Of a DNA stretch of 64,000 nucleotides, positions 1 through 22,515 are shown piece by piece. The DNA is from Escherichia phage SUT_E420. The stretch is taken from the sequence record OQ990039, one strand, 5' to 3'. Made by a program: the position numbers and the translations under genes. How positions within the stretch are numbered: the first letter of the stretch is position 1; each line of letters starts with the position of its first letter. The notes beneath the pieces were generated by a model. That model was given only the letters and a program-made list of their open reading frames with translations. It made no database searches and had not been told where the DNA came from.

Positions 1-71
1 ACGAAAGAAACGTTTGTCTATTCCGAAATCAATAACATCTACTGTGTTAACGTAGGGTCTTGATACTTCCA

Positions 72-554
72 TTACTTCTTACCTCCAGTAGCTAGGGAAG
101 TAATTAAGTCCATGTAGTTTTGATCCCCAGCTCCAGCAATAATATTATTCTGGATGTTGGTCTGGTTAGCTGGAGTACGGGCTGCTGCCTTCACTTTCTC
201 CAATTCTACCATCATTTTCATTTCTTCCATTTTCATTTTATGTGCTTTCCAGAGAATATCCATAATATCTTGGTCAGAACCCATGCCAGTTTCTTCCAGT
301 TCCTCTAGTTTACGCTTGATAACCTCATCTAGAACACCAAATAAACGATCTCTGTTACGGAATCCACTCTCCATAAAAATATCGTTTAAGTAATTCTTAA
401 CTTCACTACGATTCATAATATCTCGGAAAGCAATTTCGGACATCCCAAGACTACGTGCGGCAGAAGGCACATCGCTGCCGCACTGTAAATACGCTTCAAT
501 TACATCCATCCCTTCAGGGGACATAAGATCTGGTACTAATACATCATTTGCCAT
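72..554 (-). CDS. hypothetical protein, possible helix-turn-helix
   Basis: 160-aa ORF co-oriented with and just downstream of the pb5-like gene; segment [20 protein letters not shown] looks HTH-like; no family assigned. Confidence 0.5.
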
Positions 555-564
555 ATTTCCTCCT

Positions 565-2664
565 TTAGGTAAGGCGTTGAATTATAAGTTTAATATTTGG
601 TAAGCATGCTTTCATGCCAATTATATTGCTCATAGAGGATTCTAACCAAATAGAGATATTATTATTTCCATCATTTCTCATATAATATGTTAGAGTATAG
701 TAACCCGTTTGACCTACTGATCCCGGCAACCCAGATACCCAGTACGGAGTTGGAGTATACCCAGCAGCCTGTAATTTACAAGCNNNNNNNNNNNNNNNNN
801 NNNNNNNNNNNNNNNNNNNNNNNNNNNNNNNNNNNNNNNNNNNNNNNNNNNNNNNNNNNNNNNNNNNNNNNNNNNNNNNNNNNGTTTGACCTACTGATCC
901 CGGCAACCCAGATACCCAGTACGGAGTTGGAGTATACCCAGCAGCCTGTAATTTACAAGCATTTACTACAGTACCTTTAATAGTAAAAAATGGTACATAT
1001 TCTCCTGCAGGTAGGGACAATATTTGGTGAAGTTTTTTATCGATAGTATTGCCACCCATTCTGAACCTACTATCTCCATATTCGGCGCCTTTAGATAGCA
1101 TTTCCGTAGGATTAAAGCAGCCAATACCTCCTGCAGACAACCATGTGTCATCCAGGAACTCCATAGTACATACAATTGCGCCATTTCTACTACTATTAAG
1201 ATCTAGTCCCACGGTGCCAACATGCACGGAACCATTACCCTGAAATACTATGTTACCAGATAGTACAGTACTTCCGCTACCACCTAGAAGTCTTAAAGGT
1301 AAAAGATTCTCACTCCAAACATCTCCATAATTGCTGCCTATTTTTGGAGGATTACTAGAAACATACCAAGATGCTGAAGGTAAAAAGTTATAAATACTAA
1401 CTACATTAGTATTTAAACCACCAACGTTACCACCTTTAATACTTGGTGCGTTATTGCTTTCCGTAGTGGGCAGCCCAAATGTTGCTATGCCAGAAACTCC
1501 AGTAGAGGGGGCACCCATACTCAAGTTACACCCAACATCACGAAAATCAGCTCTGCTACCTACATTAAAGTTTTTCTCAACAAAGTTAATAAACTTCCAT
1601 GACGTATTATTAACATTAACCCCTTTAATAATAAACTCTCTTGGGCTAAGTTTAATATCATTGCCAGTAAATAGCCCACTATCAATACTGTATCCTGAGC
1701 CATTGTATACTAGATTGGTAACATACCAAGTAATTTTAGATGGATAAATACCGAGGTGCTCACTATATATACCTATAGGCCCATTAGCAGCATCATTCGG
1801 ATCACCCATACTTTCCCAATAAGCATAGTTAGTGGGATCAGCACGTGCGAAACCTACAGAGTACTTAGGAGCCGAGGGATTGCTAGGGTTATCTATAAAG
1901 TTAAGAGCCCCAGAACTAGAAGCACCGTGCACAGCTCCAGCAGTGGTATAGTTAGGCCCTTCCATACCGTAAAGAACTCTATTGCAAGATCTACCACGAA
2001 CATATATGGCGTTAAATCCAAAGTTTCTAGCTCCGGGATGCCTAACGTAGTCGCTAGGGATAGTTATGGATCCTGAGCTGGGCACAATATATCCTGAACC
2101 ATCCCAGGCAGACTTATAAAGAGCGGCACCACCTAAGTACATTGCACTAGATGCAAATCCTCTACGCCCACTAAAGGCGCCAAACATATGCTGACATCCA
2201 GTACCATCTCTAAGCTTCTGGGGAATAGTTCCACTAGTTCCACTGTTAAAATAACCTACATCAAGGGATAGATCAGCACTAGCTGTTATTTGTGTTTTTA
2301 AGCCACCCTGGGACATGACCTGTGGATTTATAATTCCGTACGCCTTAGCACCTACCCCCATAGACATACCGGATAACATATGTCTAGAGCCATCTGAGAA
2401 CTCAATCTCCGTCAGCACAACTCTATTAGGATCATTATTATGTAACTGGGTAATTCTGCTAGGCATATCAGACCAGTAGTAATCTCCAGCACCTTGATCT
2501 AGCCTTAACCCTGTGGAGTGAGTTTCTGTTATGATAACATGGGGCATATCTGAATGGAATATGGTCTGAGAGTCAGGATTAATATGTTGATTAGTATCTC
2601 CGCCACTACCCCTGCGCAGAGAGAGTATAGATTTATTATTTAGCTTGCCAGCGAAAAAACTCAT
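565..2664 (-). CDS. oad: receptor-binding tail protein, pb5-like
   Basis: 699-aa Gly-rich ORF divergent from llp-type lipoprotein gene; includes about 59 artefactual residues from N-gap 782-883 plus duplicated flank, so true length is near 640 aa. Confidence 0.75.
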
Positions 2665-2683
2665 AAGTTCTCCAAAAATTTAA

Positions 2684-2712
2684 TTGCCTATATTGCTATA
2701 ATTCTGTATAAT
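2684..2712 (+). promoter_or_regulatory. sigma70-type promoter for llp (-35 TTGCCT, 17 bp, -10 TATAAT)
   Basis: TTGCCT at 2684-2689 and TATAAT at 2707-2712, followed by AGGAGA Shine-Dalgarno and ATG at 2744. Confidence 0.6.
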
Positions 2713-2743
2713 AGTATTATAAATTAAACATAGGAGAATGTAA

Positions 2744-2977
2744 ATGAAAAAATTATTTTTAGCTATGGCAGTGGTACTTCTTTCGGCTTGCTCTACTTTT
2801 GGTCCTAAAGATATTAAATGTGAGGCCTACTATGTACAAGATCATGTGAAATATAAGGCTAATGTTTTTGATAGGAAAGGGGATATGTTTTTGGTGTCAC
2901 CAATTATGGCCTATGGGTCTTTTTGGGCTCCCGTAAGCTACTTTACTGAGGGGAATACATGTGAGGGAGTTTTCTAA
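2744..2977 (+). CDS. llp: Llp-like lipoprotein (receptor-blocking superinfection exclusion)
   Basis: 77 aa; signal peptide MKKLFLAMAVVLLSAC with lipobox LSAC; divergent from receptor-binding protein gene. Confidence 0.8.
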   Translation: MKKLFLAMAVVLLSACSTFGPKDIKCEAYYVQDHVKYKANVFDRKGDMFLVSPIMAYGSFWAPVSYFTEGNTCEGVF

Positions 2978-3238
2978 GTAAAAACGACCTTAGTAACTAT
3001 CACCACTTAAGATAATCCTAGCGCAGAATTAGTCCAGGATGCCACACAAGACACTAGGGAAGGTATAATAAGAATATTTATACTAATCACTGCAATTGCT
3101 AGGGTATTCCAAATACCATACTCATAGGAGCATGAAAGATATGTCAAATAAAAGAAAGAACAGACGTGGAGAAGTGTACGAAGCGTGGGTTAATATTTAC
3201 GGATTTGGTTTTGTATTATTCTTAATCTTCGTAGGTTT

Positions 3239-3424
3239 TTGGTTAGCAGCTATGGCGGGGTGGCTATAATGGAATGGGTAATTATTGGCATATTCGTCTT
3301 ATTGATACTTCTCTTTGCAGGCTTACGTGTAATAGATACCTCTGTAACCCAAACAGAGATTAAATTAATGCAGTTGAGCAATAGATTATCTAGAATTGAA
3401 ACTTTATTAGAGGAGCGTAAATAA
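3239..3424 (+). CDS. small membrane protein (TM helix plus coiled coil)
   Basis: ORF with MEWVIIGIFVLLILLFAG hydrophobic N-terminus; likely true start at internal MEWVII (about 3269). Confidence 0.5.
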   Translation: MVSSYGGVAIMEWVIIGIFVLLILLFAGLRVIDTSVTQTEIKLMQLSNRLSRIETLLEERK

Positions 3425-3531
3425 TGGAATGGGTAATTATTGCACTACTGGGGATTGTGATTATTGGGCAATGTATCTTAGATAATCACTTAGCTAGAAT
3501 CGAAACCTTACTATCGGAGAAACATAAATGA
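3424..3531 (+). CDS. small membrane protein, paralog of preceding ORF
   Basis: 35-aa ORF MEWVIIALLGIVIIG... starting at TAATG overlap with upstream stop; ends ...IETLL-like as upstream paralog. Confidence 0.35.
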   Translation: MEWVIIALLGIVIIGQCILDNHLARIETLLSEKHK

Positions 3532-3722
3532 TGGAAGTGGCAATTACACTAATGGTAATATTAGTCTGGGTAATCCTCATTGTCTCTCGTATCGTGTATC
3601 TCCGCCTAAAAACTCTAGAAGCCCAGGTAAAACAACAACAAGTTATTCTAGAAAAGCTAGTACTACTGCAACGTTGTGATAGCACCCGTATTCTGCAAAT
3701 TGAGAGGGAATTAGATGTTTAG
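3528..3722 (+). CDS. small membrane protein
   Basis: 64-aa ORF, hydrophobic N-terminus ITLMVILVWVILIV, start overlaps upstream stop (ATGA). Confidence 0.5.
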   Translation: MMEVAITLMVILVWVILIVSRIVYLRLKTLEAQVKQQQVILEKLVLLQRCDSTRILQIERELDV

Positions 3723-3960
3723 TATTATAATTGCTTTTATTATCGGGATACTCGCGGGAGTTTTCGGGACGACTGCGGCAATCAATAAGCATCGGGAATA
3801 TATTGCGGGAGTGACGCGGGAGATTGCGGAAAGGGAGCGGAAGTTTGACGAGAAACGTGCGGAGTTTGAGCGAGAGTGGTCGGATGGATCTCGGGCGTCG
3901 CGGAAGAGATTCCGGGAGTTCAGACCAGAACACAGGTTTGATGACCCTTCTATGCGCTAA
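3715..3960 (+). CDS. small membrane protein with basic/acidic C-terminal tail
   Basis: 81-aa ORF, N-terminal TM segment IIIAFIIGILAGVFG, overlapping start with upstream ORF. Confidence 0.5.
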   Translation: MFSIIIAFIIGILAGVFGTTAAINKHREYIAGVTREIAERERKFDEKRAEFEREWSDGSRASRKRFREFRPEHRFDDPSMR

Positions 3961-4062
3961 TTCGACTTTTGTCAAATTTCATAAGATTACACATGGAGGT
4001 GTGTCCAGTGGCTCCCCAGATGAGAATGAGTCTCATTACCGCCCGGTACTTAGCAAGCTAAT

Positions 4063-4095
4063 AGTCACGGCATGTTATCATTACACACCGTGACT
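4063..4095. terminator. hairpin between convergent genes (possible bidirectional terminator)
   Basis: 8-bp stem AGTCACGG/CCGTGACT with 17-nt loop between the end of the plus-strand small-gene array and the dmp-like gene. Confidence 0.35.
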
Positions 4096-4111
4096 ATTTC
4101 AACTTTAATTA

Positions 4112-4846
4112 TTACGCAACTTTTAATTTCTCAATATATTGTTGCGGGCTGCAACTATATTCTGCGCGTTCTTCCTCGGTCATACTTTCCCAACATAATT
4201 TCAAACGATCAGCTAGGAACTGATAATCATTATCATCATCGAGAGATTCATCGATAAAGGTTTCACCTATCAATGCAACGCCGATTGATAGAATATCGTT
4301 AATGGCTTGCGCGTCCAGCGTTTTAAATCCGTATGATGCCGCCGCTGATAGCACGCCTTTATGATCGTCAATCATTGTAAAGTCAGCGTTTGGATATAAT
4401 TGTTTAAATAATTCAAAATAATACGATTTATAAATGGCGTCTTTGCTGTGGTATATCTCGCTAACTTTATCAGCTTCAAAATATTTGTGTAGTGTATCGC
4501 GGGAAAATACACGGATATTACTATCACCACGACCGCGCAACCCTTGTTTACGCAAATAATAATAGTCCGACTTGCTCATTAGTCGAGCGGTGCAAATAAT
4601 GTTTAAAGTATTTGCATCATTCATACATTGGCGCATATATTCAACCAATGGCAATAAAGTATCTTGCATTATTAAATGATGTTTGCAGGCTTCATTTTTA
4701 TACTTATTTAAATCTAAATTGCCCTCACTATCAAAGCAAGGCGCTACACGATGGAAAGAATTAATGATAGTGCCGTCTAAATCCCAAATCATGACGCGGG
4801 AAATATGCGGGAAATTACGGGAAATATTCATAATAGCTTTATTCAT
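4112..4846 (-). CDS. dmp: HAD-family 5'-deoxyribonucleotidase, Dmp-like
   Basis: 244 aa; DLDGT HAD phosphatase motif near N-terminus; size matches T5 pre-early Dmp. Confidence 0.7.
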   Translation of the reverse strand: MNKAIMNISRNFPHISRVMIWDLDGTIINSFHRVAPCFDSEGNLDLNKYKNEACKHHLIMQDTLLPLVEYMRQCMNDANTLNIICTARLMSKSDYYYLRKQGLRGRGDSNIRVFSRDTLHKYFEADKVSEIYHSKDAIYKSYYFELFKQLYPNADFTMIDDHKGVLSAAASYGFKTLDAQAINDILSIGVALIGETFIDESLDDDNDYQFLADRLKLCWESMTEEERAEYSCSPQQYIEKLKVA

Positions 4847-4925
4847 TTGTTACGTTCTCCATTAAAGGGATTTAGTTTATCCAGCATTACCCGCTATTTA
4901 TAAGCGGGTAATAATAAATCAACTA

Positions 4926-5318
4926 TTAAAGACCATAAGCCAACGCATCAGCAATAAAACTAATATCCTCACCTGATACATGGGAACGAATACCCGCGCA
5001 GGTATATACCTTTGCGCTCGCTAGCTGATCATCAAGGCAAGCGAGGCAAGGCGCGACAACTGCAAAGGCTAGGCCGGATTTTACTGCGTCGATGATAATC
5101 GTTTCTTGTTTCACCGTGTCAATATAAACGCCTTTTGCTTTAATATGGCTTGTTAGTTTGCCTTGCATATATGCAAATGTTGTAACCTGCATCGCATCAT
5201 TGAAATCTAACAATTCATCAATAACGTGCCACGCCTCGACGTGATAACGTTCACCATTAGAATAAACCAGAACAATGGAAGACTGAGCGCGATCGAATGG
5301 AATATTTTGCTTTTTCAT
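4926..5318 (-). CDS. hypothetical protein
   Basis: 130-aa ORF co-oriented with dmp-like gene, short intergenic gap. Confidence 0.5.
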   Translation of the reverse strand: MKKQNIPFDRAQSSIVLVYSNGERYHVEAWHVIDELLDFNDAMQVTTFAYMQGKLTSHIKAKGVYIDTVKQETIIIDAVKSGLAFAVVAPCLACLDDQLASAKVYTCAGIRSHVSGEDISFIADALAYGL

Positions 5319-5356
5319 ATTTATAAAACCCCAATTAGTTTAATAATGGATTTAAA

Positions 5357-5704
5357 TTATTTGATAATAATCTGCATCTGGTACGGCGTTAATTCACCGT
5401 TTACGGGTAGATTATTATCACTTAGCCACTCATAAAAAGCGCTATCGTCATCAAAAGGAACAACATCATTATCACGGTAATCTACGGAAATAACGCCATC
5501 AGTATTAGTTTTAGCGGCTAGGATAGGCCCGAAGCTGTAAACTTTATCAGATTCCATTTCATCCGGTGAAATNNNNNNNNNNNNNNNNNNNNNNNNNNNN
5601 NNNNNNNNNNNNNNNNNNNNNNNNNNNNNNNNNNNNNNNNNNNNNNNNNNNNNNNNNNNNNNNNNNNNNNNNGAAGTGAGCACGGCTAAACATGATATGA
5701 TCAT
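5357..5704 (-). CDS. hypothetical protein (N-terminus obscured by N-gap)
   Basis: ORF runs into N-gap 5572-5672; annotated N-terminus is not trustworthy. Confidence 0.4.
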   Translation of the reverse strand: MIISCLAVLTXXXXXXXXXXXXXXXXXXXXXXXXXXXXXXXXXXISPDEMESDKVYSFGPILAAKTNTDGVISVDYRDNDVVPFDDDSAFYEWLSDNNLPVNGELTPYQMQIIIK

Positions 5705-6134
5705 TTTAGTCGATTGTCATACTGGCTATTGCGGGGAAGGGAATACCGAGGAATACTTTGTTCCTGCTGGTACGGATCTGGACGCTTTCGCTCATGAAAT
5801 GGCTATTGATAATGCTTCTCGTTTTGGTAGCGATGGCTATGAAGACGAAGAAACTGGCGAATGGTATGAAAATGAAAACGTATATGCTGGCCTTTATCAT
5901 TATCAATTAAGTAAATCCGGCACATATGTAAACGGCGGCGATCCTATTAATTCCGTCATGAAATTAATTATTAAATATGGTGGCGTCGAAATAATTGATA
6001 ATAAAGCGGTAATATACGCAAATCGATTAAAACAGCTTGTTTATATTCCTGATAATACCCGATGGGAGGAATACGCTGTTTTACATGATGAATTAAAACG
6101 ATGTTTCAATGTTGAATCCTTACAGGTAGTTTAA
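5676..6134 (+). CDS. hypothetical protein
   Basis: 152-aa ORF starting right after N-gap; true start may lie in the gap. Confidence 0.5.
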   Translation: MSTAKHDMIILVDCHTGYCGEGNTEEYFVPAGTDLDAFAHEMAIDNASRFGSDGYEDEETGEWYENENVYAGLYHYQLSKSGTYVNGGDPINSVMKLIIKYGGVEIIDNKAVIYANRLKQLVYIPDNTRWEEYAVLHDELKRCFNVESLQVV

Positions 6135-6238
6135 TGTAAAGTTTTGTAAAGGTCGCCTTTTATGGTGGCCTTTTTTGTTATAATGCTTTTACACCAAAAC
6201 GGTGGATTAAAAATTTCCCAAAAATTTGGAGGCTTAAA

Positions 6239-6469
6239 ATGGTTGCTTACTCTTCTGCTACTCATCTGTTCACCGCTCAAGGCTGGGTATCTAACCGCGC
6301 CATTATTCATGAAATGGTGCAGGAGTTCGGCATTGCTAAAACTTATAACACCATCCAAGAACTATACAACGCCGATAAAATCGATCAGCAAACGGCGGGC
6401 TTTTTGCTGGACACGCTGAAAGCGGAACACTGTACTAAAAAACAAGCTGCAAAAATTGTTTTAATGTAA
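6239..6469 (+). CDS. hypothetical protein
   Basis: 76-aa ORF with upstream GGAGG-like ribosome-binding site. Confidence 0.5.
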   Translation: MVAYSSATHLFTAQGWVSNRAIIHEMVQEFGIAKTYNTIQELYNADKIDQQTAGFLLDTLKAEHCTKKQAAKIVLM

Positions 6470-6519
6470 TTAGTAACGGGGGATATTATATCCCTCACTG
6501 ACTAGGAGAATAAAAAAAA

Positions 6520-6669
6520 ATGGTTATTTTTCGAGCTATTCTGGCGGGTATCTTGGGCGCTATTTTATCGTTGTTTGCAATAGCTTTTGGCGTTCACGCC
6601 GTTATTATTGGCGCTGGCATTGCTGCGTTTTCTTATCTGCTGGGCTGCATGACTAGTAAAGGAGAATAA
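6520..6669 (+). CDS. small membrane protein (49 aa)
   Basis: Below ORF-track cutoff; AGGAGA ribosome-binding site then ATG; entirely hydrophobic; stop followed directly by next gene. Confidence 0.4.
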   Translation: MVIFRAILAGILGAILSLFAIAFGVHAVIIGAGIAAFSYLLGCMTSKGE

Positions 6670-6671
6670 AA

Positions 6672-6884
6672 ATGATCCGCAACGTTTCCCTTGCACGTTC
6701 GAAAGGCTTTAAGCTGGTGGATGTTAACACGTTCGAGCGGGAAGATTGTAAAATCGAATATGTAGCACGTAACAAAAATGCCTTTCGTGTTACCGAGAAA
6801 AAATTTGATAAGCGCGGCAACGTGATAGCTGAAACAGTTAAACACTTTGCCACCTTTTACGCTGCGTTTCGTGGGGTACTATGA
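6672..6884 (+). CDS. hypothetical protein
   Basis: 70-aa ORF, AGGAGA ribosome-binding site upstream. Confidence 0.5.
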   Translation: MIRNVSLARSKGFKLVDVNTFEREDCKIEYVARNKNAFRVTEKKFDKRGNVIAETVKHFATFYAAFRGVL

Positions 6885-7126
6885 AAAGCGTTATTGTTAT
6901 TATCCTTGCAATGGCTGGCGGTTTTATCGCCACCTTATTTAAAAATGACCCCATTTCATTGGGGATCTTTATGCTTTTATCTGGCTATCTAATCGGGAGG
7001 CTAACAAATGATTCAGCAAATTAAAACGGCTTTTCGTTTTTGGGGCGTCCTGCCTTCAATTGGTTTTATTCTGATAATTATTAGTCAGCTAATGATCATC
7101 GGCGGAACTATTTGGGAGCTATGCAA

Positions 7127-7471
7127 ATGATAATTTATGAAGGCAATCGTTTTGTTGCTAATTGCCGCCCAGCATTATTAGCAAACTATTTAAATCAGCT
7201 TTCCCCAGCTTATAAGGGCGTTATTAATATTTATGAGGGCAAGGCACATTATAAAATTAATGCGGTCGTTGCCCGTGAACTAGCGTTTCAATTTTTGACC
7301 TTTGCATCTTGTGACGTTCAGGTTATGGGTGAAGCATTAATTGCAGAAAATGAAGATGATTTTATTAATATTTTCCGCAAGGTATGTACCGAGCGCCTGA
7401 TAATGAAAGGCGCATATATTCAATCCACTGCGGATAGTATTGAAACAGCGTTTCGAAAGGTGGCGCAATGA
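7127..7471 (+). CDS. hypothetical protein
   Basis: ORF 7112-7471; likely start at MIIYEGNRF (ATGA overlap with a small upstream membrane ORF). Confidence 0.5.
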   Translation: MIIYEGNRFVANCRPALLANYLNQLSPAYKGVINIYEGKAHYKINAVVARELAFQFLTFASCDVQVMGEALIAENEDDFINIFRKVCTERLIMKGAYIQSTADSIETAFRKVAQ

Positions 7472-7572
7472 GATTATATATTTTCGTTGGTAATAGTAAG
7501 GCCGCTAATGATTCCGCTGGTGGCGATAACATTCGCCACTATTGGCAAAAATATATTTACTAGGGAGTTATT

Positions 7573-7767
7573 ATGAGTAATAAAATAGTTGTAACCAAGA
7601 TCAGTACAATGGTTGATGTTTTTTACGTGCCAGATACGCCGGAGAATCGGCAAGCGGTCGAGCGTGGCGAATATGATAAAGTGATTTATGATCACGATGG
7701 TTATTATCAGTATTTGGTGGATTCCTACGGGGAGGAGGAAAAAATCACGCATCGACTACCAGACTAA
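7573..7767 (+). CDS. hypothetical protein
   Basis: 64-aa ORF with AGGGAG ribosome-binding site; last gene before non-coding repeat region. Confidence 0.5.
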   Translation: MSNKIVVTKISTMVDVFYVPDTPENRQAVERGEYDKVIYDHDGYYQYLVDSYGEEEKITHRLPD

Positions 7768-8051
7768 TAATCACGGGGCGCAACTATCAGGGAGTGCCCC
7801 CAATTTTCAAATGAGAATGATTCTCATTTAACCGCGCCCGCGATGGTTAGCCTGCTAATGATTAGGGTGTTACGTGTCGCCTTGTGTGATCGTTAGCTCG
7901 CTAACTAATTTCTAAGCCTCCTCCAATTTTACCCGTGTTTTAGTATCCCCAACAAAATTAAACGCGTTAGAATGCGTTTGAGAGCGTTTTAGCTGTATAT
8001 TAGAATTATTCACTGCATAGGAATACTGTATATTTATACAGTAGGATAAGC

Positions 8052-8133
8052 TGTTGATAAGTCTGTTGATAACGCCTCAAAATGGCTAGGATTTTGTCAA
8101 GTCAAATCGTGCTGTTGATAAGTCTGTGGATAA
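8052..8133. repeat. cluster of four DnaA-box-like 9-mers
   Basis: TGTTGATAA at 8052, 8064, 8113 and TGTGGATAA at 8125 (reverse complement of TTATCCACA), all in direct orientation. Confidence 0.6.
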
Positions 8134-8149
8134 CTTAAATAATAGTGTT

Positions 8150-8330
8150 TCTCACTTCCATTCTTAAATACGAATCAGTATCATTCGCATTTCACTATCT
8201 AACTAATAATCATTCCACTTTTTAAATGAGAATCGTTTCACTTCCTGAATAATTCTCACTTCCATTCTTAAATGCGAATTATTATCATTCACATTCCGCT
8301 TTTTAAATGAGAATGATTCTCATTATCATT
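8150..8330. repeat. direct repeats and palindromes (GAGAATGATTCTC family)
   Basis: TTCTCACTTCCATTCTTAAAT(A/G)CGAAT occurs twice; palindrome AAATGAGAATGATTCTCATT at 8305-8324; similar palindromes near 7811 and 4024. Confidence 0.6.
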
Positions 8331-8366
8331 CGTATTCAGGCAAGCAGGGCAATTGCCCTGCGCTTT

Positions 8367-8968
8367 TGTGCAAATCCGACATTTGCCCCCATGGATTACG
8401 CGTGGGCGTGTATGTGCGAATCCGACAATTTTTGGTAGTGTGCAAATCCGACCCGAAAAATTTTTATAATGTGCGGATCCGACAATGAATTTTCCTAAAA
8501 ACTCCAGCAATCCGATGCTGCGCATCAATCCTGTGGAATTAACTAGAATATGTGCAAATCCGACATGGGTTTATTTGTGCGAATCCGACAAGATTTTTGT
8601 GACTTCGATTGGAGAGTGTGTGATTGTAAGAGTTTGGGGAGAAGTTGAGAGATCGAGAAAAATTTGAGGGAACTGCGAGAGGGGCGCATGTTTGGTGCGT
8701 AGCACCTGATTTGCGGGGATTTTGGGGAAGAGTTGAGAAGATTTGGGTTAATTTGAGATTAGTGCAGATAAAGTAAAATCTTATTAGCTAAATGGGGCAA
8801 AATAGCTTGACAAGTGAAAGTTTCTGTGGCTCTAAAAACTCAGGCAATCATGGGCCTTCGGCCCGAAATAATGCTGCCATTTTCAAGAGATTATATGTTC
8901 CTAAAAACTTAGGCAATTGTGCAAATCCGACCATAAATTTCTAGAAACACAATGTGCAAATCCGACAG
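8367..8968. repeat. dispersed 15-mer repeat family TGTGC(A/G)(A/G)ATCCGAC(A/C), about 8 copies
   Basis: Copies near 8367, 8413, 8439, 8470, 8551, 8576, 8928, 8954 in non-coding DNA; irregular spacing. Confidence 0.65.
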
Positions 8969-9503
8969 TAATTTCTGGAAATGTGTTTTCAAAAAATGTC
9001 TCCTAGAAATAACCGCCCTCCCCATAACCGCCCTGTATTAAACCGCCTAGTATATGTTCCTAGAAACTTAGGAGAACCGCCCTAGAAAGAGTGAGTATTT
9101 CGTGAGAACTCTGGAGTTTCTAGGAAAGTGTTGTGCCATCCTAGCAGATGAGCGGCAACAGGTGTATCATCTTGAATGTAAATTATGTGGTCAAAAGTTT
9201 TACTTTTATTTTAAATATAAGATCCCCCAGGGTTCTCATATAGAGCTTTGCCCCCGCCAGAAGGTCTCGTGATGTTTCTAGCAATTTATATTAAATTACT
9301 TATTAACTTGTCCTGTCGCTCCGTATCCTCCGCTACAAGTTAGTAATTTTAAATTACTGAACCACCACACCTTCTGTGTGGCAACTCTAAATGGTTAATT
9401 CTATTAACTCATAGAGTTATGATAACATACATTTAGCTATCTGTCAACGAGAGTTTGTATTTGAGTCTCGGTACAGGTATTGTGCACCGAGACATGCAGG
9501 ATC

Positions 9504-10388
9504 TTACAGTAACTCTTGGTATGCTTTTTGGTACGCCTCAGTGTCAGTAGGTGTATCTTTTGCTAGTGCAATTAGTTCATCTGTTATCTGAATGTTCGTA
9601 TTATAACGTGTGTGGAACTCGTTAGGAATTTCTAGGTATCTATTGATGAATGCTGCAGCAAGCGGTGTGACTAAACCAATCTCTAGAGATAGCTTAACTT
9701 GTTTTTCGTAGATTAAATATTGAGAATCAGATGGGGTTGGTGGGGTTACATCAATTTTCTCGGGTTCTTTTTCTGGAAGCAATGGATTATTATATAATGC
9801 TTCATCTGGAAGCACAGATTTACGCTCTTTAAATATATAAGTTTCTAGATCCGATGCTTTAGATCCTGAGTATACCGCAAAGATGCTAGCTTTACCCTGT
9901 GATGCCCTAACTGGTAAATAACTAGTAGGATAGCTTCTTAATGCATCATGGAATGGACTTCCTGAGTACTTGTATGTATCTCCATAGAGATCATCAATAT
10001 TCATTCGTTCATCTTCAAAGATGTGAAATGACTTAAATGGTGGAATGGTGAAGTATTCCATCTGTAACCCATAAACTAAGAAACGATGTGCATATGCACT
10101 GATTTTTAAGACTGTGAATGCTTTTTCACCTTCTTTATGGGCGTTGCCTTTTGAAGTAACTTGGTAACGTTTACAAAACATCTCTACTAGACGTTTCTCA
10201 TTAATACTAAGGGTGGAGTACAGTCGTCCACTTAATCCTATAAGTGCATCGAACATAAATGCTAGTTTATCTTTTTCTTCCTGGGTTAGTTCAGGAAATG
10301 GAAGTACTTTAGCATCAGGAACACTATTATTTTTCTTAGGTTTTGTTTTACCAGCGTTTTGTCTTAGTTTATCTTTAAAGTTATACAT
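9504..10388 (-). CDS. hypothetical protein
   Basis: 294-aa ORF, first gene of the long minus-strand block. Confidence 0.55.
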   Translation of the reverse strand: MYNFKDKLRQNAGKTKPKKNNSVPDAKVLPFPELTQEEKDKLAFMFDALIGLSGRLYSTLSINEKRLVEMFCKRYQVTSKGNAHKEGEKAFTVLKISAYAHRFLVYGLQMEYFTIPPFKSFHIFEDERMNIDDLYGDTYKYSGSPFHDALRSYPTSYLPVRASQGKASIFAVYSGSKASDLETYIFKERKSVLPDEALYNNPLLPEKEPEKIDVTPPTPSDSQYLIYEKQVKLSLEIGLVTPLAAAFINRYLEIPNEFHTRYNTNIQITDELIALAKDTPTDTEAYQKAYQELL

Positions 10389-15136: not shown

Positions 15137-15745
15137 TTACCAATCGTTAACAACGCCGGAGAACTCAGAAGCAAAAACCTTTTCAAATTTCTCTGCAATT
15201 TCAGGATGATCTTTGCAGATCAGCTCAATACATGCTTCTGGAGTCATTCCTTCATCTTCAGGATCACCGTAGTATTTGTCCCAAAGATCATCAGGGATGA
15301 TATGCTCCGCCAAATCTTGGAAAGAGATTAACTGATAACGTTCTGCTTCCTCAGCGATAAGAATTTCGCACAGATCTTTATCTATATCGCTACGATAATC
15401 CGCAATTAATAGGGCATTGCAAGCATGGCATTCCCAGACCATCAAACGTTCAGAGATAGGATTAGACTTATCTTGAACGTAAGACTGGAACAAGGTTCGG
15501 AAAGTTGCCTTAACTTGTTCNNNNNNNNNNNNNNNNNNNNNNNNNNNNNNNNNNNNNNNNNNNNNNNNNNNNNNNNNNNNNNNNNNNNNNNNNNNNNNNN
15601 NNNNNNNNNNNNNNNNNNNNAAACGTTCAGAGATAGGATTAGACTTATCTTGAACGTAAGACTGGAACAAGGTTCGGAAAGTTGCCTTAACTTGTTCAAA
15701 CTTATCTGCTGCTGCGAAAACTAGAGCTTTATCAACTTTGTTCAT
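15137..15745 (-). CDS. hypothetical protein (inflated by N-gap 15521-15620 and duplicated flank)
   Basis: 202-aa ORF contains X run and repeated 25-aa segment; true length about 143 aa. Confidence 0.45.
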   Translation of the reverse strand: MNKVDKALVFAAADKFEQVKATFRTLFQSYVQDKSNPISERXXXXXXXXXXXXXXXXXXXXXXXXXXXXXXXXXXEQVKATFRTLFQSYVQDKSNPISERLMVWECHACNALLIADYRSDIDKDLCEILIAEEAERYQLISFQDLAEHIIPDDLWDKYYGDPEDEGMTPEACIELICKDHPEIAEKFEKVFASEFSGVVNDW

Positions 15746-16503: not shown

Positions 16504-16792
16504 TACTCTTTTCCTTATTCTGTATTAAACTATCAACCCAAGAGGTTAACACTTTGGTTTTAAACTCCTCGGAAGTCTCTCCTTCCTTAAGGTCTACCTC
16601 ATTAAGATAGGTAGTAAGCCTTGTTTCTACCTCTATTTCAGTAGGAGAATTAAAACAAAAATTGACTGCTATCCCAGAATATATTACCCCCGTATCTCCT
16701 TTGACGAAAGTATTAACTAATGCCCTCCAACGAAGGGCATCAATACGCATTGCTCGTAATTCTTCTCGTACTTCTTTCATTCTATCATTCAT
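16493..16792 (-). CDS. hypothetical protein
   Basis: 99-aa ORF. Confidence 0.5.
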   Translation of the reverse strand: MNDRMKEVREELRAMRIDALRWRALVNTFVKGDTGVIYSGIAVNFCFNSPTEIEVETRLTTYLNEVDLKEGETSEEFKTKVLTSWVDSLIQNKEKSNES

Positions 16793-17667
16793 TAAAGAAT
16801 CCTCTGTACACCACAGCTATCTTCCCGGAGTGTAGTAAATGTGGTGATTTTGCCCGTTTCATCATTAACTTGCGCAACCGTCAACTGCCCGTTGAAAACA
16901 CCGCCAGTATCAAGGTAAACACGGTTTTTATAAAGAAGTGGGTAAGGTACTCCAGTATGCCCATGAAACACGAAATCTACCCCTTTAACTTCTGGCACTT
17001 CTACCATATATTTTTCTTTAAATCCTGAATAACGCTGGAAATACGGGTGTTCCTCACCATTTTTGGACAAGTAGAAGCCTATTTCTTGGATTACATCTCG
17101 ATCCCATAAATATGGTTCAATATGGTATCCAGGATGGTCATGTGGGTCTTCCTTAGCTGCTTCTACTTGTGCAATAAGATTATCCCATACTGGGGTTTCT
17201 ACTTCATTACCACATTCTTTGTACGTAAAAGGTACACCACCATGAACAACACCATACTTCTTACCACGATGCCTAACAGTTAGGAATACTGGCATTTTTT
17301 CAGCCATATCTTCGGCGATATTTTTAATGGTGTCTGCATCCAGCTCTTCCATAGCCCATATACCACCGTTATACATCCAATTAGCCCAATCTCCTGCAAT
17401 CATAAATTGGTCGTGATTACCACGGACACTGATAAAATGTGGATTATACAGGAATTTGGCTAAAACTTGTAGGTTTTGTGTGCCTCGGTCAATTAAGTCA
17501 CCAACACATACTAAGCAATCTTTCTTGCTATTATACCCAGCTAATTTCAACGCATCTTCCAGCAAATCATTGCATCCATGAATATCACCAACGAAAAACA
17601 AGTTGGCATCATCTGGCACTACTAGAGTTTTATGTACATTAAATTCTTTTTTCATAATTATTCCCAA
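16792..17667 (-). CDS. serine/threonine protein phosphatase (PPP family)
   Basis: 291 aa; GDIHGC, GDLIDRG and GNHD motifs. Confidence 0.8.
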   Translation of the reverse strand: MGIIMKKEFNVHKTLVVPDDANLFFVGDIHGCNDLLEDALKLAGYNSKKDCLVCVGDLIDRGTQNLQVLAKFLYNPHFISVRGNHDQFMIAGDWANWMYNGGIWAMEELDADTIKNIAEDMAEKMPVFLTVRHRGKKYGVVHGGVPFTYKECGNEVETPVWDNLIAQVEAAKEDPHDHPGYHIEPYLWDRDVIQEIGFYLSKNGEEHPYFQRYSGFKEKYMVEVPEVKGVDFVFHGHTGVPYPLLYKNRVYLDTGGVFNGQLTVAQVNDETGKITTFTTLREDSCGVQRIL

Positions 17668-21762: not shown

Positions 21763-22515
21763 TTATCCAACTAGTGGTTCTAGCTCTAAGTCACAGAAGT
21801 TATAAACTTCTAGTTTAAGGTTATTGATACCATCGAATTTATTAACTAATTCGTGAGTAATATATTTTGCAGGAATACCACTTTCAGATGGATGATCTGA
21901 TTTAATAGTGAACTTCTGCTCAGCGGGTACTACATTTACTATCAAAGAATCCATATCTAAATGGTTTGTTTCTCTGAGTAACTCTCCTTCATTGGGGAAT
22001 CTAACATCTGTTATTACGGCGACATCTGGGTCGTCTTTAGCGATGGATTGCTCCAGAATTATGAGCCAAATGCGTTCATGCACCAGCTGCCTTCCTAGCT
22101 CTGTCCCTACGAGCTGTAACATTTTTCTCGGAGAAATAAATAAGCTATAAAGACCGTCTTCTTTATTCTCTGATATAAGTTGTTGAGGATTAAGATATTT
22201 TTCCTCAAAAATAGGCCAAACGTACGAGAAGTCTTCAAACTTATCGATACCGTACTTAAACCACACATCCCTGGCTCGTTCCAACTGAGATTGTGTGACC
22301 GTAAACCATTGGTCAATCTCTTTTCCCCTGCGCTCTCCTAGAAACTCTGGAGTTACACCGAGGATTACGGATGCAAGTTCATAAACGGGCTTAGCAAAAC
22401 TATAACGACGAGATAAACACGTTGGATACGTGTCATTACACCAATCGATAATTAATTTTGCAACGGTATCTTTTCCCGAACCAGCTTCACCATGTAAACC
22501 GACTAATACTGACAT
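21763..22515 (-). CDS. dnk: deoxynucleoside monophosphate kinase
   Basis: 250 aa; P-loop GLHGEAGSGKDT at N-terminus; size consistent with T5 dNMP kinase. Confidence 0.7.
   Translation of the reverse strand: MSVLVGLHGEAGSGKDTVAKLIIDWCNDTYPTCLSRRYSFAKPVYELASVILGVTPEFLGERRGKEIDQWFTVTQSQLERARDVWFKYGIDKFEDFSYVWPIFEEKYLNPQQLISENKEDGLYSLFISPRKMLQLVGTELGRQLVHERIWLIILEQSIAKDDPDVAVITDVRFPNEGELLRETNHLDMDSLIVNVVPAEQKFTIKSDHPSESGIPAKYITHELVNKFDGINNLKLEVYNFCDLELEPLVG

What the first reader, a model, noticed from the sequence alone, without database searches (positions are those of the whole stretch)
7770..9500. 1.7-kb non-coding repeat region with DnaA boxes: injection-stop-signal-like element
Between the pre-early-like genes and the first early gene there is no coding capacity but dense repeats: four DnaA-box-like 9-mers in 80 bp, about eight copies of a 15-mer (TGTGCAAATCCGACA family), tandem TTCTCACTTCCATTCTTAAAT repeats and near-perfect palindromes. 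In T5 a region of this kind at the inner end of the terminal repeat halts first-step DNA transfer; the DnaA boxes could also indicate an origin-like or host-protein binding site.
Basis: partly seen in the sequence, partly recalled or inferred. Interest (0 to 1): 0.6.

Follow-up and report, generated by a model that had tools for sequence, protein, structure and literature searches.

The report
T5-type phage injection stop region
This 1.7-kb gene-free, repeat-packed stretch is the already-described "injection stop signal" region at the inner end of the terminal repeat of a T5-like phage; it is correctly recognised but not new, although its core also carries a near-perfect host LexA (SOS) box that the T5 literature I could search does not mention.

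Summary
The window is a T5-like phage (Tequintavirus), 99.9-100% identical here to deposited phages. Positions 7768-9503 are the ortholog of T5's large untranslated "Repeat Region 3". T5's annotated iss (9140-10149) maps to window 7759-8762, its 7.9% nick to 8363|8364, and its terminal-repeat end to 8832|8833. Four DnaA-type boxes lie within 82 bp. There are eight TGTGCRRATCCGAC repeats, two 67-nt repeats and several palindromes. All are far above chance and collinear in about 20 relatives. ORFs inside the region are not maintained.

Only the left ~1.06 kb lies in the terminal repeat. The right part holds a different element: a highly conserved hairpin at ~9258-9376.

New details:
- T5's "palindrome D" is a 19/20 match to the LexA consensus, fixed 10 bp from the first DnaA pair.
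- It is present in both inverted copies of the module and is retained in Klebsiella and Vibrio relatives.
- Variation in the DnaA boxes follows the TTWTNCACA degeneracy.

The mechanism is inferred, not shown: host proteins, with DnaA the leading candidate, arrest the DNA at this module. The origin-like reading is not supported.

The parts
7768..9503 (.). Whole untranslated region between the last rightward pre-early ORF and the T5.018-like early gene. It is the ortholog of T5 Repeat Region 3 plus the adjacent unannotated non-coding DNA.
   Evidence: ORFs inside are not maintained in relatives.
7768..7935 (+). Poorly conserved zone just after the pre-early operon. It holds a GC-rich hairpin followed by a T-run (about 7776-7808), the palindrome ATGAGAATGATTCTCAT (7811-7827) and two TTAGCNNGCTAA palindromes (7847-7858, 7893-7904). 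These are probably transcription-termination hairpins.
   Evidence: Mean identity 0.65. Palindromes. The T5 terminator annotation maps here, but the alignment is unreliable in this zone.
8024..8043 (.). Near-consensus LexA (SOS) box TACTGTATATTTATACAGTA, equal to T5 'palindrome D' and forming the start of inverted repeat D'.
   Evidence: It has 1 mismatch to TACTGTATATATATACAGTA and is the only hit in 64 kb, against 0.01 expected. The consensus is cited from PMC8072944. Eighteen of 20 positions are invariant in 15 relatives. It is present in both module copies and in Klebsiella and Vibrio relatives.
8052..8072 (-). DnaA-box pair 1 (TTATCAACA, 3-bp gap, TTATCAACA), part of T5 'direct repeat B copy 1'.
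8073..8112 (.). Stretch between the two DnaA pairs. It has a fixed length and is as conserved as the boxes themselves.
   Evidence: Mean identity 0.947. Offsets are identical to T5.
8113..8133 (-). DnaA-box pair 2 (TTATCAACA, 3-bp gap, perfect TTATCCACA), part of T5 'direct repeat B copy 2' / inverted repeat C'.
   Evidence: Box 4 is TTATCCACA in 37 of 53 distinct modules.
8149..8319 (+). Two 67-nt direct repeats (8149-8215 and 8253-8319, T5 DRE). The zone is 70% A+T and contains the DRC/palindrome E-I family TTAAATGMGAATNATTMTCAT. The T5 7.9% shear point projects to about 8313.
   Evidence: The shear coordinate comes, with the offset.
8309..8327 (-). Fur-box-like 19-mer GATAATGAGAATCATTCTC, with 2 mismatches to GATAATGATAATCATTATC.
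   Evidence: Only two loci in the 64-kb window reach 4 mismatches or fewer. This is a lead only.
8344..8366 (-). Palindrome GCAGGGCAATTGCCCTGC (T5 palindrome J, terminator-like) followed by the nick motif CCCTGCGC. T5's major 7.9% single-strand interruption maps to 8363|8364 on the minus strand.
   Evidence: Mean identity 0.91-0.99.
8367..8589 (+). DRD copies 1-6 (TGTGCRRATCCGAC) at 8367, 8413, 8439, 8470, 8551 and 8576.
   Evidence: The 14-mers are 0.96 conserved against 0.84 for the spacers between them.
8598..8770 (+). G-rich, C-poor zone (GC skew +0.58 to +0.67) with TTTGGGGARRAGTTGAGA repeats (T5 DRA copies 2-3).
8813..8864 (.). Inner (right) end of the terminal repeat at 8832|8833 (GTGGCTC|TAAAAACTCAGG), followed by the 99%-conserved hairpin GGGCCTTCGGCCC (8851-8864).
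   Evidence: The T5 LTR end (10219) and the HASG4 LTR end (10266) were each verified as the exact limit of 100% LTR=RTR identity, and both map to 8832. The MM-1 annotated LTR end falls at the same motif. Conservation.
8918..8966 (+). DRD copies 7-8, which lie outside the terminal repeat.
9011..9083 (+). Three exact AACCGCCCT copies with interleaved TTCCTAGAAAC / GTTTCTAGGAA inverted repeats. Part of this zone is poorly conserved.
   Evidence: Positions 9041-9120 have mean identity 0.60.
9258..9376 (-). A separate, highly conserved long hairpin. It is not part of the T5 iss annotation and is not annotated in any T5 record.
   Evidence: Positions 9181-9503 are 0.96 conserved, against 0.89 for the adjacent CDS. 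Fold z-scores are -5.96 (minus strand) and -4.98 (plus strand). There are 3 double-sided compensatory pairs, but all come from one lineage split.
9419..9447 (-). Promoter-like site TTGACA-17-TATCAT with an extended -10 TG, pointing leftwards into the hairpin.
   Evidence: 11 of 12 matches. Both hexamers are invariant in 11 relatives.

Best explanation
Window 7768-9503 is the large untranslated region at the inner end of the left terminal repeat of a T5-like phage. It is the ortholog of T5 'Repeat Region 3', which contains the injection stop signal (iss).

Shown here:
- Collinear homology with T5's annotated iss.
- The terminal repeat spans about 4002-8832.
- The order of elements is: termination hairpins, a LexA-type box, two pairs of same-strand DnaA boxes, AT-rich 67-nt repeats, the nick motif, six DRD repeats, a G-rich zone, the repeat end, then two more DRD repeats.
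- This order, and the internal spacing of the LexA/DnaA module, is kept across Tequintavirus and Epseptimavirus. The core module is kept in Klebsiella and Vibrio relatives.

Inferred mechanism:
1. DNA enters left end first and stalls when about 8% is inside. That is when DNA near window ~8313 spans the envelope.
2. The last duplex to reach the cytoplasm is then the 8024-8340 block.
3. Because no phage protein has yet been made, I think this block is a landing pad for pre-existing host DNA-binding proteins. Membrane-associated DnaA on the four boxes is the leading candidate (Davison's model). LexA on the adjacent box, and possibly Fur or bending proteins on the AT-rich repeats, may add to it.
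4. This complex, together with the inverted second copy of the same module about 3.7 kb upstream, holds the DNA until the pre-early proteins A1 and A2 release it.
5. The nick motif, the DRD array and the repeat boundary to the right more likely serve resumption of transfer and the cutting or duplication of the terminal repeat during packaging.

My probabilities: 0.97 that this is the T5 iss-region ortholog, about 0.75 that the stop signal lies within it, and about 0.3 that DnaA binding is the arresting event.
For: Identity:
- 99.9-100% identical to deposited T5-like phages. 458 phage records match, rising to 541 for the core.
- Global alignment to T5 gives 85.5% identity. T5 iss 9140-10149 maps to 7759-8762, the nick at 9748/9749 to 8363/8364, and the LTR end at 10219 to 8832.
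- HASG4 and MM-1 give the same boundary.
- The left boundary context is reproduced at 4001|4002.

Repeats above chance.

Selective constraint:
- The module is 0.90-0.96 conserved, and the DRD 14-mers are 0.96 against 0.84 for the spacers. Flanking CDS are 0.87-0.89, with third codon positions at 0.74-0.78.

Host-protein reading:
- Over 53 distinct modules, box positions 1, 2, 4, 7, 8 and 9 are nearly invariant. Position 3 toggles A/T and position 5 is free, as in TTWTNCACA. Of the 53 modules, 52 keep at least one consensus box.
- The Vibrio relative has lost all other detectable similarity but keeps three perfect boxes and the CTGT-N8-ACAG box at the same 10-bp spacing.
- The LexA+DnaA composite occurs only in 95-123 kb T5-like contigs of IMG/VR. 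It is absent next to 127 paired DnaA boxes in other viral contigs.

Literature: the stop occurs at 7.9%. It does not occur in vitro with FhuA liposomes, which implies a host factor. Conserved DnaA boxes are reported in 25 phages. The mechanism was still called poorly understood in 2026.
Against: - No experiment ties DnaA, LexA or any host protein to the arrest. Davison's model is a hypothesis.
- In T5 the iss is placed by shear mapping and annotation, not by mutational dissection.
- Many boxes carry A instead of C at position 6, outside the DnaA consensus.
- The 40-bp stretch between the pairs is as conserved as the boxes, so something reads more than the boxes.
- A T5-like phage is recorded with host DH5alpha. 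That strain is recA1 (my knowledge), so LexA cleavage cannot be required for infection.
- The terminal-repeat ends and the nick in this phage are projected from relatives, not measured.
- The partner module and A1/A2 fall in the window's N gap.
- Two relatives annotate shorter repeats: K20 ends at window ~8412 and saus132 at ~8624.
Confidence: 0.6

Rival explanations
1. Packaging and terminal-repeat signals. The repeats, especially the DRD array that straddles the repeat end, the G-rich zone and the hairpin just past the boundary, mainly tell the terminase where to cut and duplicate the terminal repeat. Injection arrest would then be determined elsewhere or be a by-product. This is not exclusive with the main explanation.
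For: - The repeat end lies inside the region, at 8832|8833, in a 0.92-0.99 conserved context.
- Six DRD copies lie 243-465 bp to its left and two lie 86-121 bp to its right.
- Both ends of the repeat carry GTGGCTC.
- Arrays of short direct repeats flank the terminal repeat of T7 (from memory, not checked here).
Against: - No DRD copy lies near the left boundary.
- The DnaA/LexA module sits 700-800 bp from the cut and is duplicated in inverted orientation far from any end.
- A ~0.6-kb homing-endonuclease insertion inside the DRD array is tolerated in NR01 and SHSML-45.
Confidence: 0.2
2. Arrest is intrinsic to the DNA or the virion. The 7.9% nick, cruciform or hairpin extrusion of the dense palindromes, or a DNA segment held in the capsid or tail stops ejection. 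No sequence-specific host protein is involved.
For: - The nick motif coincides with the first-step transfer end.
- Palindromes are very dense.
- With a tail several hundred bp long, DNA near 8900-9050 would sit at the portal at the moment of arrest (my estimate).
Against: - Complete ejection occurs in vitro into FhuA proteoliposomes.
- Conservation follows host-factor consensus degeneracy rather than mere self-complementarity.
- Nickless T5 mutants are viable (from memory, not checked).
Confidence: 0.12
3. Origin-like element. The DnaA boxes plus the adjacent AT-rich repeats act as a DnaA-dependent replication origin, or as a DnaA titration site that manipulates host replication.
For: - Four DnaA-type boxes lie next to a 70% A+T repeat zone.
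- The boxes follow the DnaA consensus.
Against: - T5 origins were mapped near the genome centre, and replication genes are not expressed during the first-step stage.
- The module is duplicated in inverted orientation.
- GATC is not enriched: 2.9 per kb against 3.3 per kb.
- T5 encodes its own replication machinery (established knowledge).
Confidence: 0.05
4. Transcriptional control region. The LexA box and DnaA boxes regulate a promoter, for example for a non-coding RNA, or serve only as terminators and insulators between the convergent pre-early and early units.
For: - A promoter-like site lies at 7978-8006(+), just upstream of the LexA box, and terminator-like hairpins lie at 8344-8361.
- The region sits between convergent units.
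Against: - The -35 of that site is not conserved, at 0.20-0.47.
- There is no Rfam hit.
- The second copy of the module lies about 200 bp from either annotated pre-early promoter in T5.
Confidence: 0.06

Closest known systems
Bacteriophage T5 injection stop signal (iss) / LTR 'Repeat Region 3'. Sources: annotations in NC_005859, AY692264 and AY587007, and Davison 2020 bioRxiv 10.1101/866236, which cites Heusterspreute 1987 and Wang 2005.
   Same: - Same genomic position, after the last pre-early gene at the inner end of the terminal repeat.
- 85.5% identity and the same order of elements.
- Identical internal offsets of palindrome D, the DnaA pairs and the DRE repeats.
- Same nick motif and same repeat-end sequence.
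   Different: - Eight DRD copies instead of nine.
- Box 1 is TTATCAACA where T5 has TTATCCCCA.
- The zone just after the last pre-early gene (7768-7935) is diverged.
- The partner module cannot be seen in this window because of the N gap.
Chromosomal DnaA-box clusters that do not fire replication (E. coli datA and DARS-type DnaA-binding loci), and oriC itself.
   Same: Closely spaced, same-orientation 9-mers that fit TTWTNCACA, next to AT-rich DNA.
   Different: - No evidence of initiation or titration here.
- The module is fused to a LexA-type box and duplicated in inverted orientation. This arrangement was not seen next to 127 other viral DnaA-box pairs.
- GATC is not enriched.
- The datA/DARS comparison rests on my knowledge and was not tested.
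Enterobacterial LexA (SOS) operators, consensus TACTGTATATATATACAGTA (PMC8072944).
   Same: A 19/20 match. The CTGT-N8-ACAG arms are invariant while the two central bases flip.
   Different: - It does not overlap a conserved promoter.
- It sits in a virulent phage's non-coding repeat region.
- LexA binding is untested.
Terminal-repeat junction signals of T7-like phages, where short repeat arrays flank the terminal repeat.
   Same: Arrays of short same-orientation direct repeats bracket a terminal-repeat boundary.
   Different: - There is no sequence similarity.
- The T5 repeat is about 10 kb.
- No array lies at the left boundary.
- The comparison is from memory only.

Membership tests
T5 iss region (Repeat Region 3 of the Tequintavirus LTR) | A large untranslated region directly after the last rightward pre-early gene, at the inner end of the left terminal repeat. 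| tested here: met
   The 1,736-bp gap follows the T5.017-like ORF. The repeat end is projected to 8832 from three relatives. The boundary was not measured in this phage.
T5 iss region (Repeat Region 3 of the Tequintavirus LTR) | Sequence homology to T5 iss 9140-10149. | tested here: met
   85.5% identity in a global alignment. The iss maps to 7759-8762.
T5 iss region (Repeat Region 3 of the Tequintavirus LTR) | An IRD'-spacer-IRC' module with two pairs of DnaA / DnaA* boxes, 3 bp apart within each pair and at fixed spacing. | tested here: met
   Boxes lie at 8052, 8064, 8113 and 8125. Their offsets from palindrome D are identical to T5.
T5 iss region (Repeat Region 3 of the Tequintavirus LTR) | An inverted partner module (IRC-spacer-IRD) in Repeat Region 2. 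| not testable with these tools
   It falls in the window's 100-N gap. It is present in the 99.9%-identical EC148 at 5480-5611, and in T5, K20 and DT57C.
T5 iss region (Repeat Region 3 of the Tequintavirus LTR) | Two ~66-bp DRE repeats and an array of DRD repeats. | tested here: met
   DRE at 8149-8215 and 8253-8319. Eight DRD copies, against nine in T5.
T5 iss region (Repeat Region 3 of the Tequintavirus LTR) | A major single-strand nick at about 7.9% of the genome. | tested here: inconclusive
   The motif CCCTGCGC and its 40-bp context are identical to T5 at 8356-8363. A physical nick cannot be seen in sequence.
T5 iss region (Repeat Region 3 of the Tequintavirus LTR) | It halts DNA transfer after about 8%, and release needs A1 and A2. 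| not testable with these tools
   This is a functional property. The A1 and A2 genes lie in the N gap here but are present in EC148.
DnaA-dependent replication origin | A cluster of DnaA boxes. | tested here: met
DnaA-dependent replication origin | An adjacent AT-rich unwinding element with 13-mer-type repeats and a GATC cluster. | tested here: inconclusive
   A 70% A+T repeat zone is present. GATC is not enriched, at 2.9 per kb against 3.3 per kb. No 13-mer match was looked for.
DnaA-dependent replication origin | Replication initiates there. | not testable with these tools
   The literature places T5 origins near the genome centre.
LexA (SOS) operator | A match to the 20-bp consensus TACTGTATATATATACAGTA. 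| tested here: met
   A 19/20 match, unique in 64 kb, against 0.01 expected.
LexA (SOS) operator | It overlaps or adjoins a promoter that it represses. | tested here: not met
   The only nearby promoter-like site has a non-conserved -35.
LexA (SOS) operator | It is bound by LexA. | not testable with these tools
   Needs EMSA or ChIP.
Fur box | A match to the 19-bp consensus GATAATGATAATCATTATC. | tested here: inconclusive
   A 17/19 match at 8309-8327(-). Relatives keep sites with 2-4 mismatches in the same zone. The zone is AT-rich and palindromic, so the resemblance may be incidental.

The most novel reading that the evidence does not exclude
The conserved core of the T5-type stop region is not just a set of DnaA boxes. 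It is a composite landing pad for several host regulators. A near-consensus LexA operator is fused at a fixed 10-bp distance to paired DnaA boxes, and Fur-like AT-rich repeats sit beside them. The composite is present twice, in inverted orientation, bracketing the rightward pre-early operon, and it is retained from E. coli phages to Vibrio phages. On this reading LexA, alone or together with DnaA, takes part in holding the first-step DNA. Alternatively it lets the phage sense the DNA damage it inflicts through A1. That would give the 50-year-old question of why T5 injection stops a concrete, mutable target.
Probability: 0.2. Interest if true: 0.65.

Novelty: already known. Interest (0 to 1): 0.3.

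Why it matters
Two-step DNA transfer in T5 has been known since the 1960s. Why the DNA stops, and how A1 and A2 restart it, is still unresolved: a 2026 paper calls the second-step mechanism poorly understood.

This window adds no new kind of element, because it is a near-identical copy of a deposited T5-like genome. The comparative work done here does sharpen what is testable:
- It pins the arrest-proximal DNA to a ~320-bp block (8024-8340).
- It shows that variation in the boxes obeys the DnaA consensus degeneracy.
- It shows that T5's 'palindrome D' is a 19/20 LexA operator locked to the DnaA boxes in both module copies and across genera. I found no mention of this in the searchable literature.

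These are small, specific targets for phage genome editing and host-mutant tests. The region also holds the terminal-repeat boundary, which is useful for annotating collapsed T5-like assemblies.

Tried and rejected
- An apparent 5.5-kb deletion of A1, A2 and repeat regions 1-2 relative to EC148. Rejected: it is a 100-N scaffold gap.
- Coding capacity. Seven internal ORFs were tested and none is maintained in relatives.
- Known RNA families and tRNAs. None were found.
- 'Tandem' repeats. Tandem Repeats Finder reports only the 12-nt DnaA-box unit and a 10-nt G-rich unit. The 21-mer copies are 104 bp apart.
- A LexA-regulated promoter. The candidate at 7978-8006 has a non-conserved -35.
- An origin-like reading. 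Rejected on module duplication, GATC density and the literature.
- DRD as a CRP-type site. Compared by eye with TGTGA-N6-TCACA, the second half-site does not fit. Not pursued.
- DRA and AACCGCCCT repeats near the left repeat end. No copies are there.
- The T5 terminator annotation (9275-9296) maps into the poorly conserved 7768-7935 zone, so I do not rely on that mapping.
- Davison 2015 (PMC4743489) could not be read because it is not held. Heusterspreute 1987 and Wang 2005 are not in the library either. I therefore cannot exclude that one of them noted the LexA-box resemblance.
- My first conservation profile was biased by loci that ended early. It was recomputed.
Full report
**What the window is.** A megablast of 7700-9560 finds 458 phage records, with Escherichia phages SUT_E1520, T5_ev212 and EC148 at 99.9-100% identity. 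These are T5-like phages (Demerecviridae, Tequintavirus). The window is a scaffold with two runs of exactly 100 N, at 5573-5672 and 15521-15620. Relative to the 99.9%-identical EC148, the first gap hides 5.5 kb. That stretch carries A1, A2 and T5's repeat regions 1 and 2. The apparent loss of these genes is therefore an assembly artefact. The assembly carries one collapsed copy of the terminal repeat. Window 1-4001 is the right end of the unique genome, and the junction context '...cacatggaggtg|TGTCCA...' seen in T5 and HASG4 recurs at 4001|4002.

**Checking the observation.** The gap between the last rightward pre-early ORF (7573-7767) and the minus-strand T5.018-like gene (9504-10388) is 1,736 bp.
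- Four DnaA-type 9-mers lie at 8052-8133, three TTATCAACA and one perfect TTATCCACA. All are on the minus strand, arranged as two pairs with 3-bp gaps. They are 4 of the 5 matches in 64 kb, against 1.71 expected.
- Exactly eight copies of TGTGCRRATCCGAC lie at 8367-8966, all on the plus strand, against 0.00 expected.
- The 'tandem' 21-mer is really the head of two 67-nt direct repeats that start 104 bp apart (8149-8215 and 8253-8319, 82% alike). Tandem Repeats Finder does not report them.
- Palindromes are abundant.
- The longest internal ORFs are intact in only 1-8 of 16 aligned relatives, while the flanking gene is intact in 11 of 12. There is no Rfam or tRNA match.

**What it corresponds to.** T5's RefSeq record annotates the left terminal repeat as 1-10219, an 'injection stop signal (iss)' at 9140-10149 and a major single-strand interruption at 9748/9749. 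AY692264 carries the same iss feature. AY587007 annotates palindromes C-J, direct repeats A-D, inverted repeats C' and D', nick 1 (7.9%) and the repeat end.

A global alignment of the window to T5 gives 85.5% identity. It maps the iss to 7759-8762, the nick to 8363|8364 (40-bp context identical) and the repeat end to 8832|8833. In T5 and in HASG4 I confirmed that 100% identity between the left and right repeat copies stops exactly at those positions. Both project to the same window base, and MM-1's annotated repeat ends at the same motif. Filling the N gap from EC148 gives a repeat of about 10,237 bp, against 10,219 in T5 and 10,266 in HASG4. Two relatives annotate shorter repeats: K20 ends at window ~8412 and saus132 at ~8624. 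I did not verify these.

Davison's preprint describes the same anatomy in 25 phages. It places the 7.9% shear point at T5 9618 in AY587007 numbering, which projects to window ~8313.

**Conservation.** In a panel of 19 relatives, the order of elements is:
1. palindrome D
2. DnaA pair 1
3. DnaA pair 2
4. the DRE repeats
5. the nick motif
6. six DRD copies
7. the repeat end
8. two or three more DRD copies

Tequintavirus and Epseptimavirus keep this order, though a few members lack or have diverged in a DRE head, the repeat-end motif or a DRD copy. The offsets within the first block are identical.

A column-wise profile over 15 relatives gives these mean identities:
- Palindrome D: 0.96.
- DnaA pairs: 0.90 and 0.94.
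- The 40-bp stretch between the pairs: 0.95.
- DRD 14-mers: 0.96, against 0.84 for the spacers between them.
- Around the repeat end: 0.92.
- Flanking coding sequences: 0.87-0.89, with third codon positions at 0.74-0.78.

The motifs are therefore under stronger constraint than synonymous sites. The zones 7768-7935 and 9041-9120 are poorly conserved (0.65 and 0.60). A blastn of the core finds 541 records, including 81 Klebsiella, 4 Pectobacterium and 3 Vibrio phages.

**New details about the core.**

Palindrome D is a LexA-type box. TACTGTATATTTATACAGTA (8024-8043) differs at one position from the enterobacterial LexA consensus TACTGTATATATATACAGTA, which is cited in PMC8072944. It is the only match in 64 kb, against 0.01 expected.
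- Eighteen of its 20 positions are invariant in 15 relatives. Only the two central bases flip.
- It sits 10 bp from the first DnaA pair.
- It is also present in the inverted copy of the module in Repeat Region 2 of T5, K20, EC148 and DT57C.
- It keeps the same spacing in Klebsiella phage Spivey and Vibrio phage PG07.

The two copies face inward and bracket the rightward pre-early operon. The composite pattern occurs in IMG/VR only in 95-123 kb contigs, which are T5-like sized, and often twice in opposite orientation. In contrast, none of 127 perfect DnaA-box pairs in other viral contigs has CTGT-N8-ACAG within 40 bp.

Davison's text has no mention of LexA or SOS. No paper in the held library links T5-like phages with a LexA box. 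The 1987 and 2005 papers could not be checked. The plus-strand promoter-like site just upstream has a non-conserved -35, so an ordinary operator role is not supported.

DnaA-box variation follows the consensus. Over 53 distinct modules, box positions 1, 2, 4, 7, 8 and 9 are almost invariant. Position 3 toggles A/T and position 5 is free, exactly the degeneracy of TTWTNCACA. Of the 53 modules, 52 keep at least one consensus box. Position 6 is often A, which lies outside the consensus.

The AT-rich DRC/palindrome family resembles the Fur box, with 17/19 matches at 8309-8327. I treat this only as a lead, because the zone is 70% A+T.

**How it most likely works.** Shown: the homology, position, anatomy and constraint. 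Taken from the literature: transfer stops at about 8% in vivo without protein synthesis but goes to completion in vitro, and A1 and A2 are needed to resume. Inferred: because only host proteins exist at the moment of arrest, and the last DNA to enter is the 8024-8340 block, the arrest is most plausibly caused by host DNA-binding proteins loading on that block. DnaA is the leading candidate. The two strongest arguments are that box variation follows the DnaA consensus, and that host-factor motifs survive in a Vibrio relative that has lost all other detectable similarity in the region.

The nick motif, the DRD array, the G-rich zone and the boundary hairpin lie to the right of the shear point. 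They more likely serve resumption and terminal-repeat cutting. A ~0.6-kb homing-endonuclease insertion within the DRD array of NR01 and SHSML-45 shows that DRD spacing is flexible.

Points against:
- There is no experiment.
- The stretch between the box pairs is as conserved as the boxes.
- LexA cleavage cannot be required, since a T5-like phage is recorded on DH5alpha, which is recA1 (my knowledge).

**Rivals.** A packaging-signal role for the right-hand repeats is compatible and fairly likely (0.2). An intrinsic DNA or virion block is disfavoured by the complete in-vitro ejection (0.12). An origin is disfavoured by the inverted duplication, normal GATC density and the centrally mapped T5 origins (0.05). 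A purely transcriptional role is disfavoured by the non-conserved promoter (0.06).

**A separate element inside the flagged coordinates.** Positions 9181-9503 lie outside the terminal repeat and outside every T5 annotation. They are the most conserved part of the region (0.96, with many 20-nt bins at 1.00) and occur in 199 phage records, next to the T5.018-like gene in every copy I examined.
- The stretch folds into a long hairpin at about 9258-9376, with z = -5.96 on the minus strand and -4.98 on the plus strand.
- Three double-sided compensatory pairs support the hairpin: 9286/9352, 9288/9350 and 9305/9341. All three stem from a single lineage split.
- A fully conserved promoter-like site, TTGACA-17-TATCAT with an extended -10 TG, lies on the minus strand at 9447-9419.

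It could be a small RNA, a 3'-end structure of the early unit or a DNA-level signal. It should not be lumped with the iss.

**Verdict.** The feature is already known and annotated, and this copy is nearly identical to deposited genomes, so novelty is low. Residual interest lies in the LexA-box/DnaA-box composite and in the unannotated conserved hairpin.

Noticed in passing
window 5573-5672 and 15521-15620: Two runs of exactly 100 N show that the window is a scaffold. The first gap hides about 5.5 kb (A1, A2 and repeat regions 1-2, including the inverted partner of the DnaA/LexA module) relative to the 99.9%-identical EC148. The second gap is flanked by a 77-bp duplicated overlap (EC148 16755-16831).
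   Followed up: yes
window 8024-8043, and the second copy at EC148 (L003) 5596-5611 and T5 (L001) 6213-6228: T5's 'palindrome D' is a 19/20 match to the LexA consensus. It is fixed 10 bp from a DnaA-box pair in both inverted copies of the module and is retained in Klebsiella and Vibrio T5-like phages. I found no mention of it in the searchable T5 literature.
   Followed up: yes
window 9181-9503 (hairpin ~9258-9376; promoter-like site 9447-9419 on the minus strand): An unannotated stretch more conserved (0.96) than the neighbouring genes. It has a long hairpin supported by three compensatory pairs from one lineage split, and an invariant strong promoter-like site upstream on the minus strand. 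It could be a small RNA, a 3'-end structure or a DNA signal.
   Followed up: partly
window 8309-8327 and 4216-4240: The only two loci in 64 kb within 4 mismatches of the Fur-box consensus. One is in the AT-rich repeats just before the nick site. The other is inside the 3' part of the dmp gene and is conserved in T5, K20, HASG4 and EC148.
   Followed up: partly
window 4001|4002, 4020-4036 and 4050-4061: The left end of the terminal repeat is recoverable from the junction context shared with T5 and HASG4. Just inside it lie a copy of the ATGAGAATGAKTCTCAT palindrome and a TTAGCNNGCTAA palindrome, both also found at 7811-7904. Both repeat ends contain GTGGCTC.
   Followed up: partly
window 2610-2617 and 22326-22333 (+): The nick motif CCCTGCGC occurs only three times on the plus strand of the window. 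Apart from the 7.9% site, one copy lies roughly where T5's 18.5% nick would fall, and one lies about 1.4 kb before the right terminal repeat.
   Followed up: no
L011 (NR01) ~2420-3030 and L009 (SHSML-45) ~2390-2990: A ~0.6-kb insertion, annotated as a putative homing endonuclease in NR01, sits inside the DRD array between copies 3 and 4/5. SE3 and falkor also carry a homing endonuclease under the match.
   Followed up: no
L002 (K20) 9232 and L021 (saus132) 2208: These records annotate terminal-repeat ends inside or just after the DRD array (window ~8412 and ~8624), not at the GTGGCTC|TAAAAAC site verified in T5 and HASG4. Either the boundaries differ or these annotations are imprecise.
   Followed up: no
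L020 (Vibrio phage PG07) 134-288: Five plus-strand DnaA-type boxes lie about 2.7 kb left of the LexA/DnaA module, in the opposite orientation and without a LexA-type box. This is probably the Repeat Region 2 equivalent in a distant relative.
   Followed up: no
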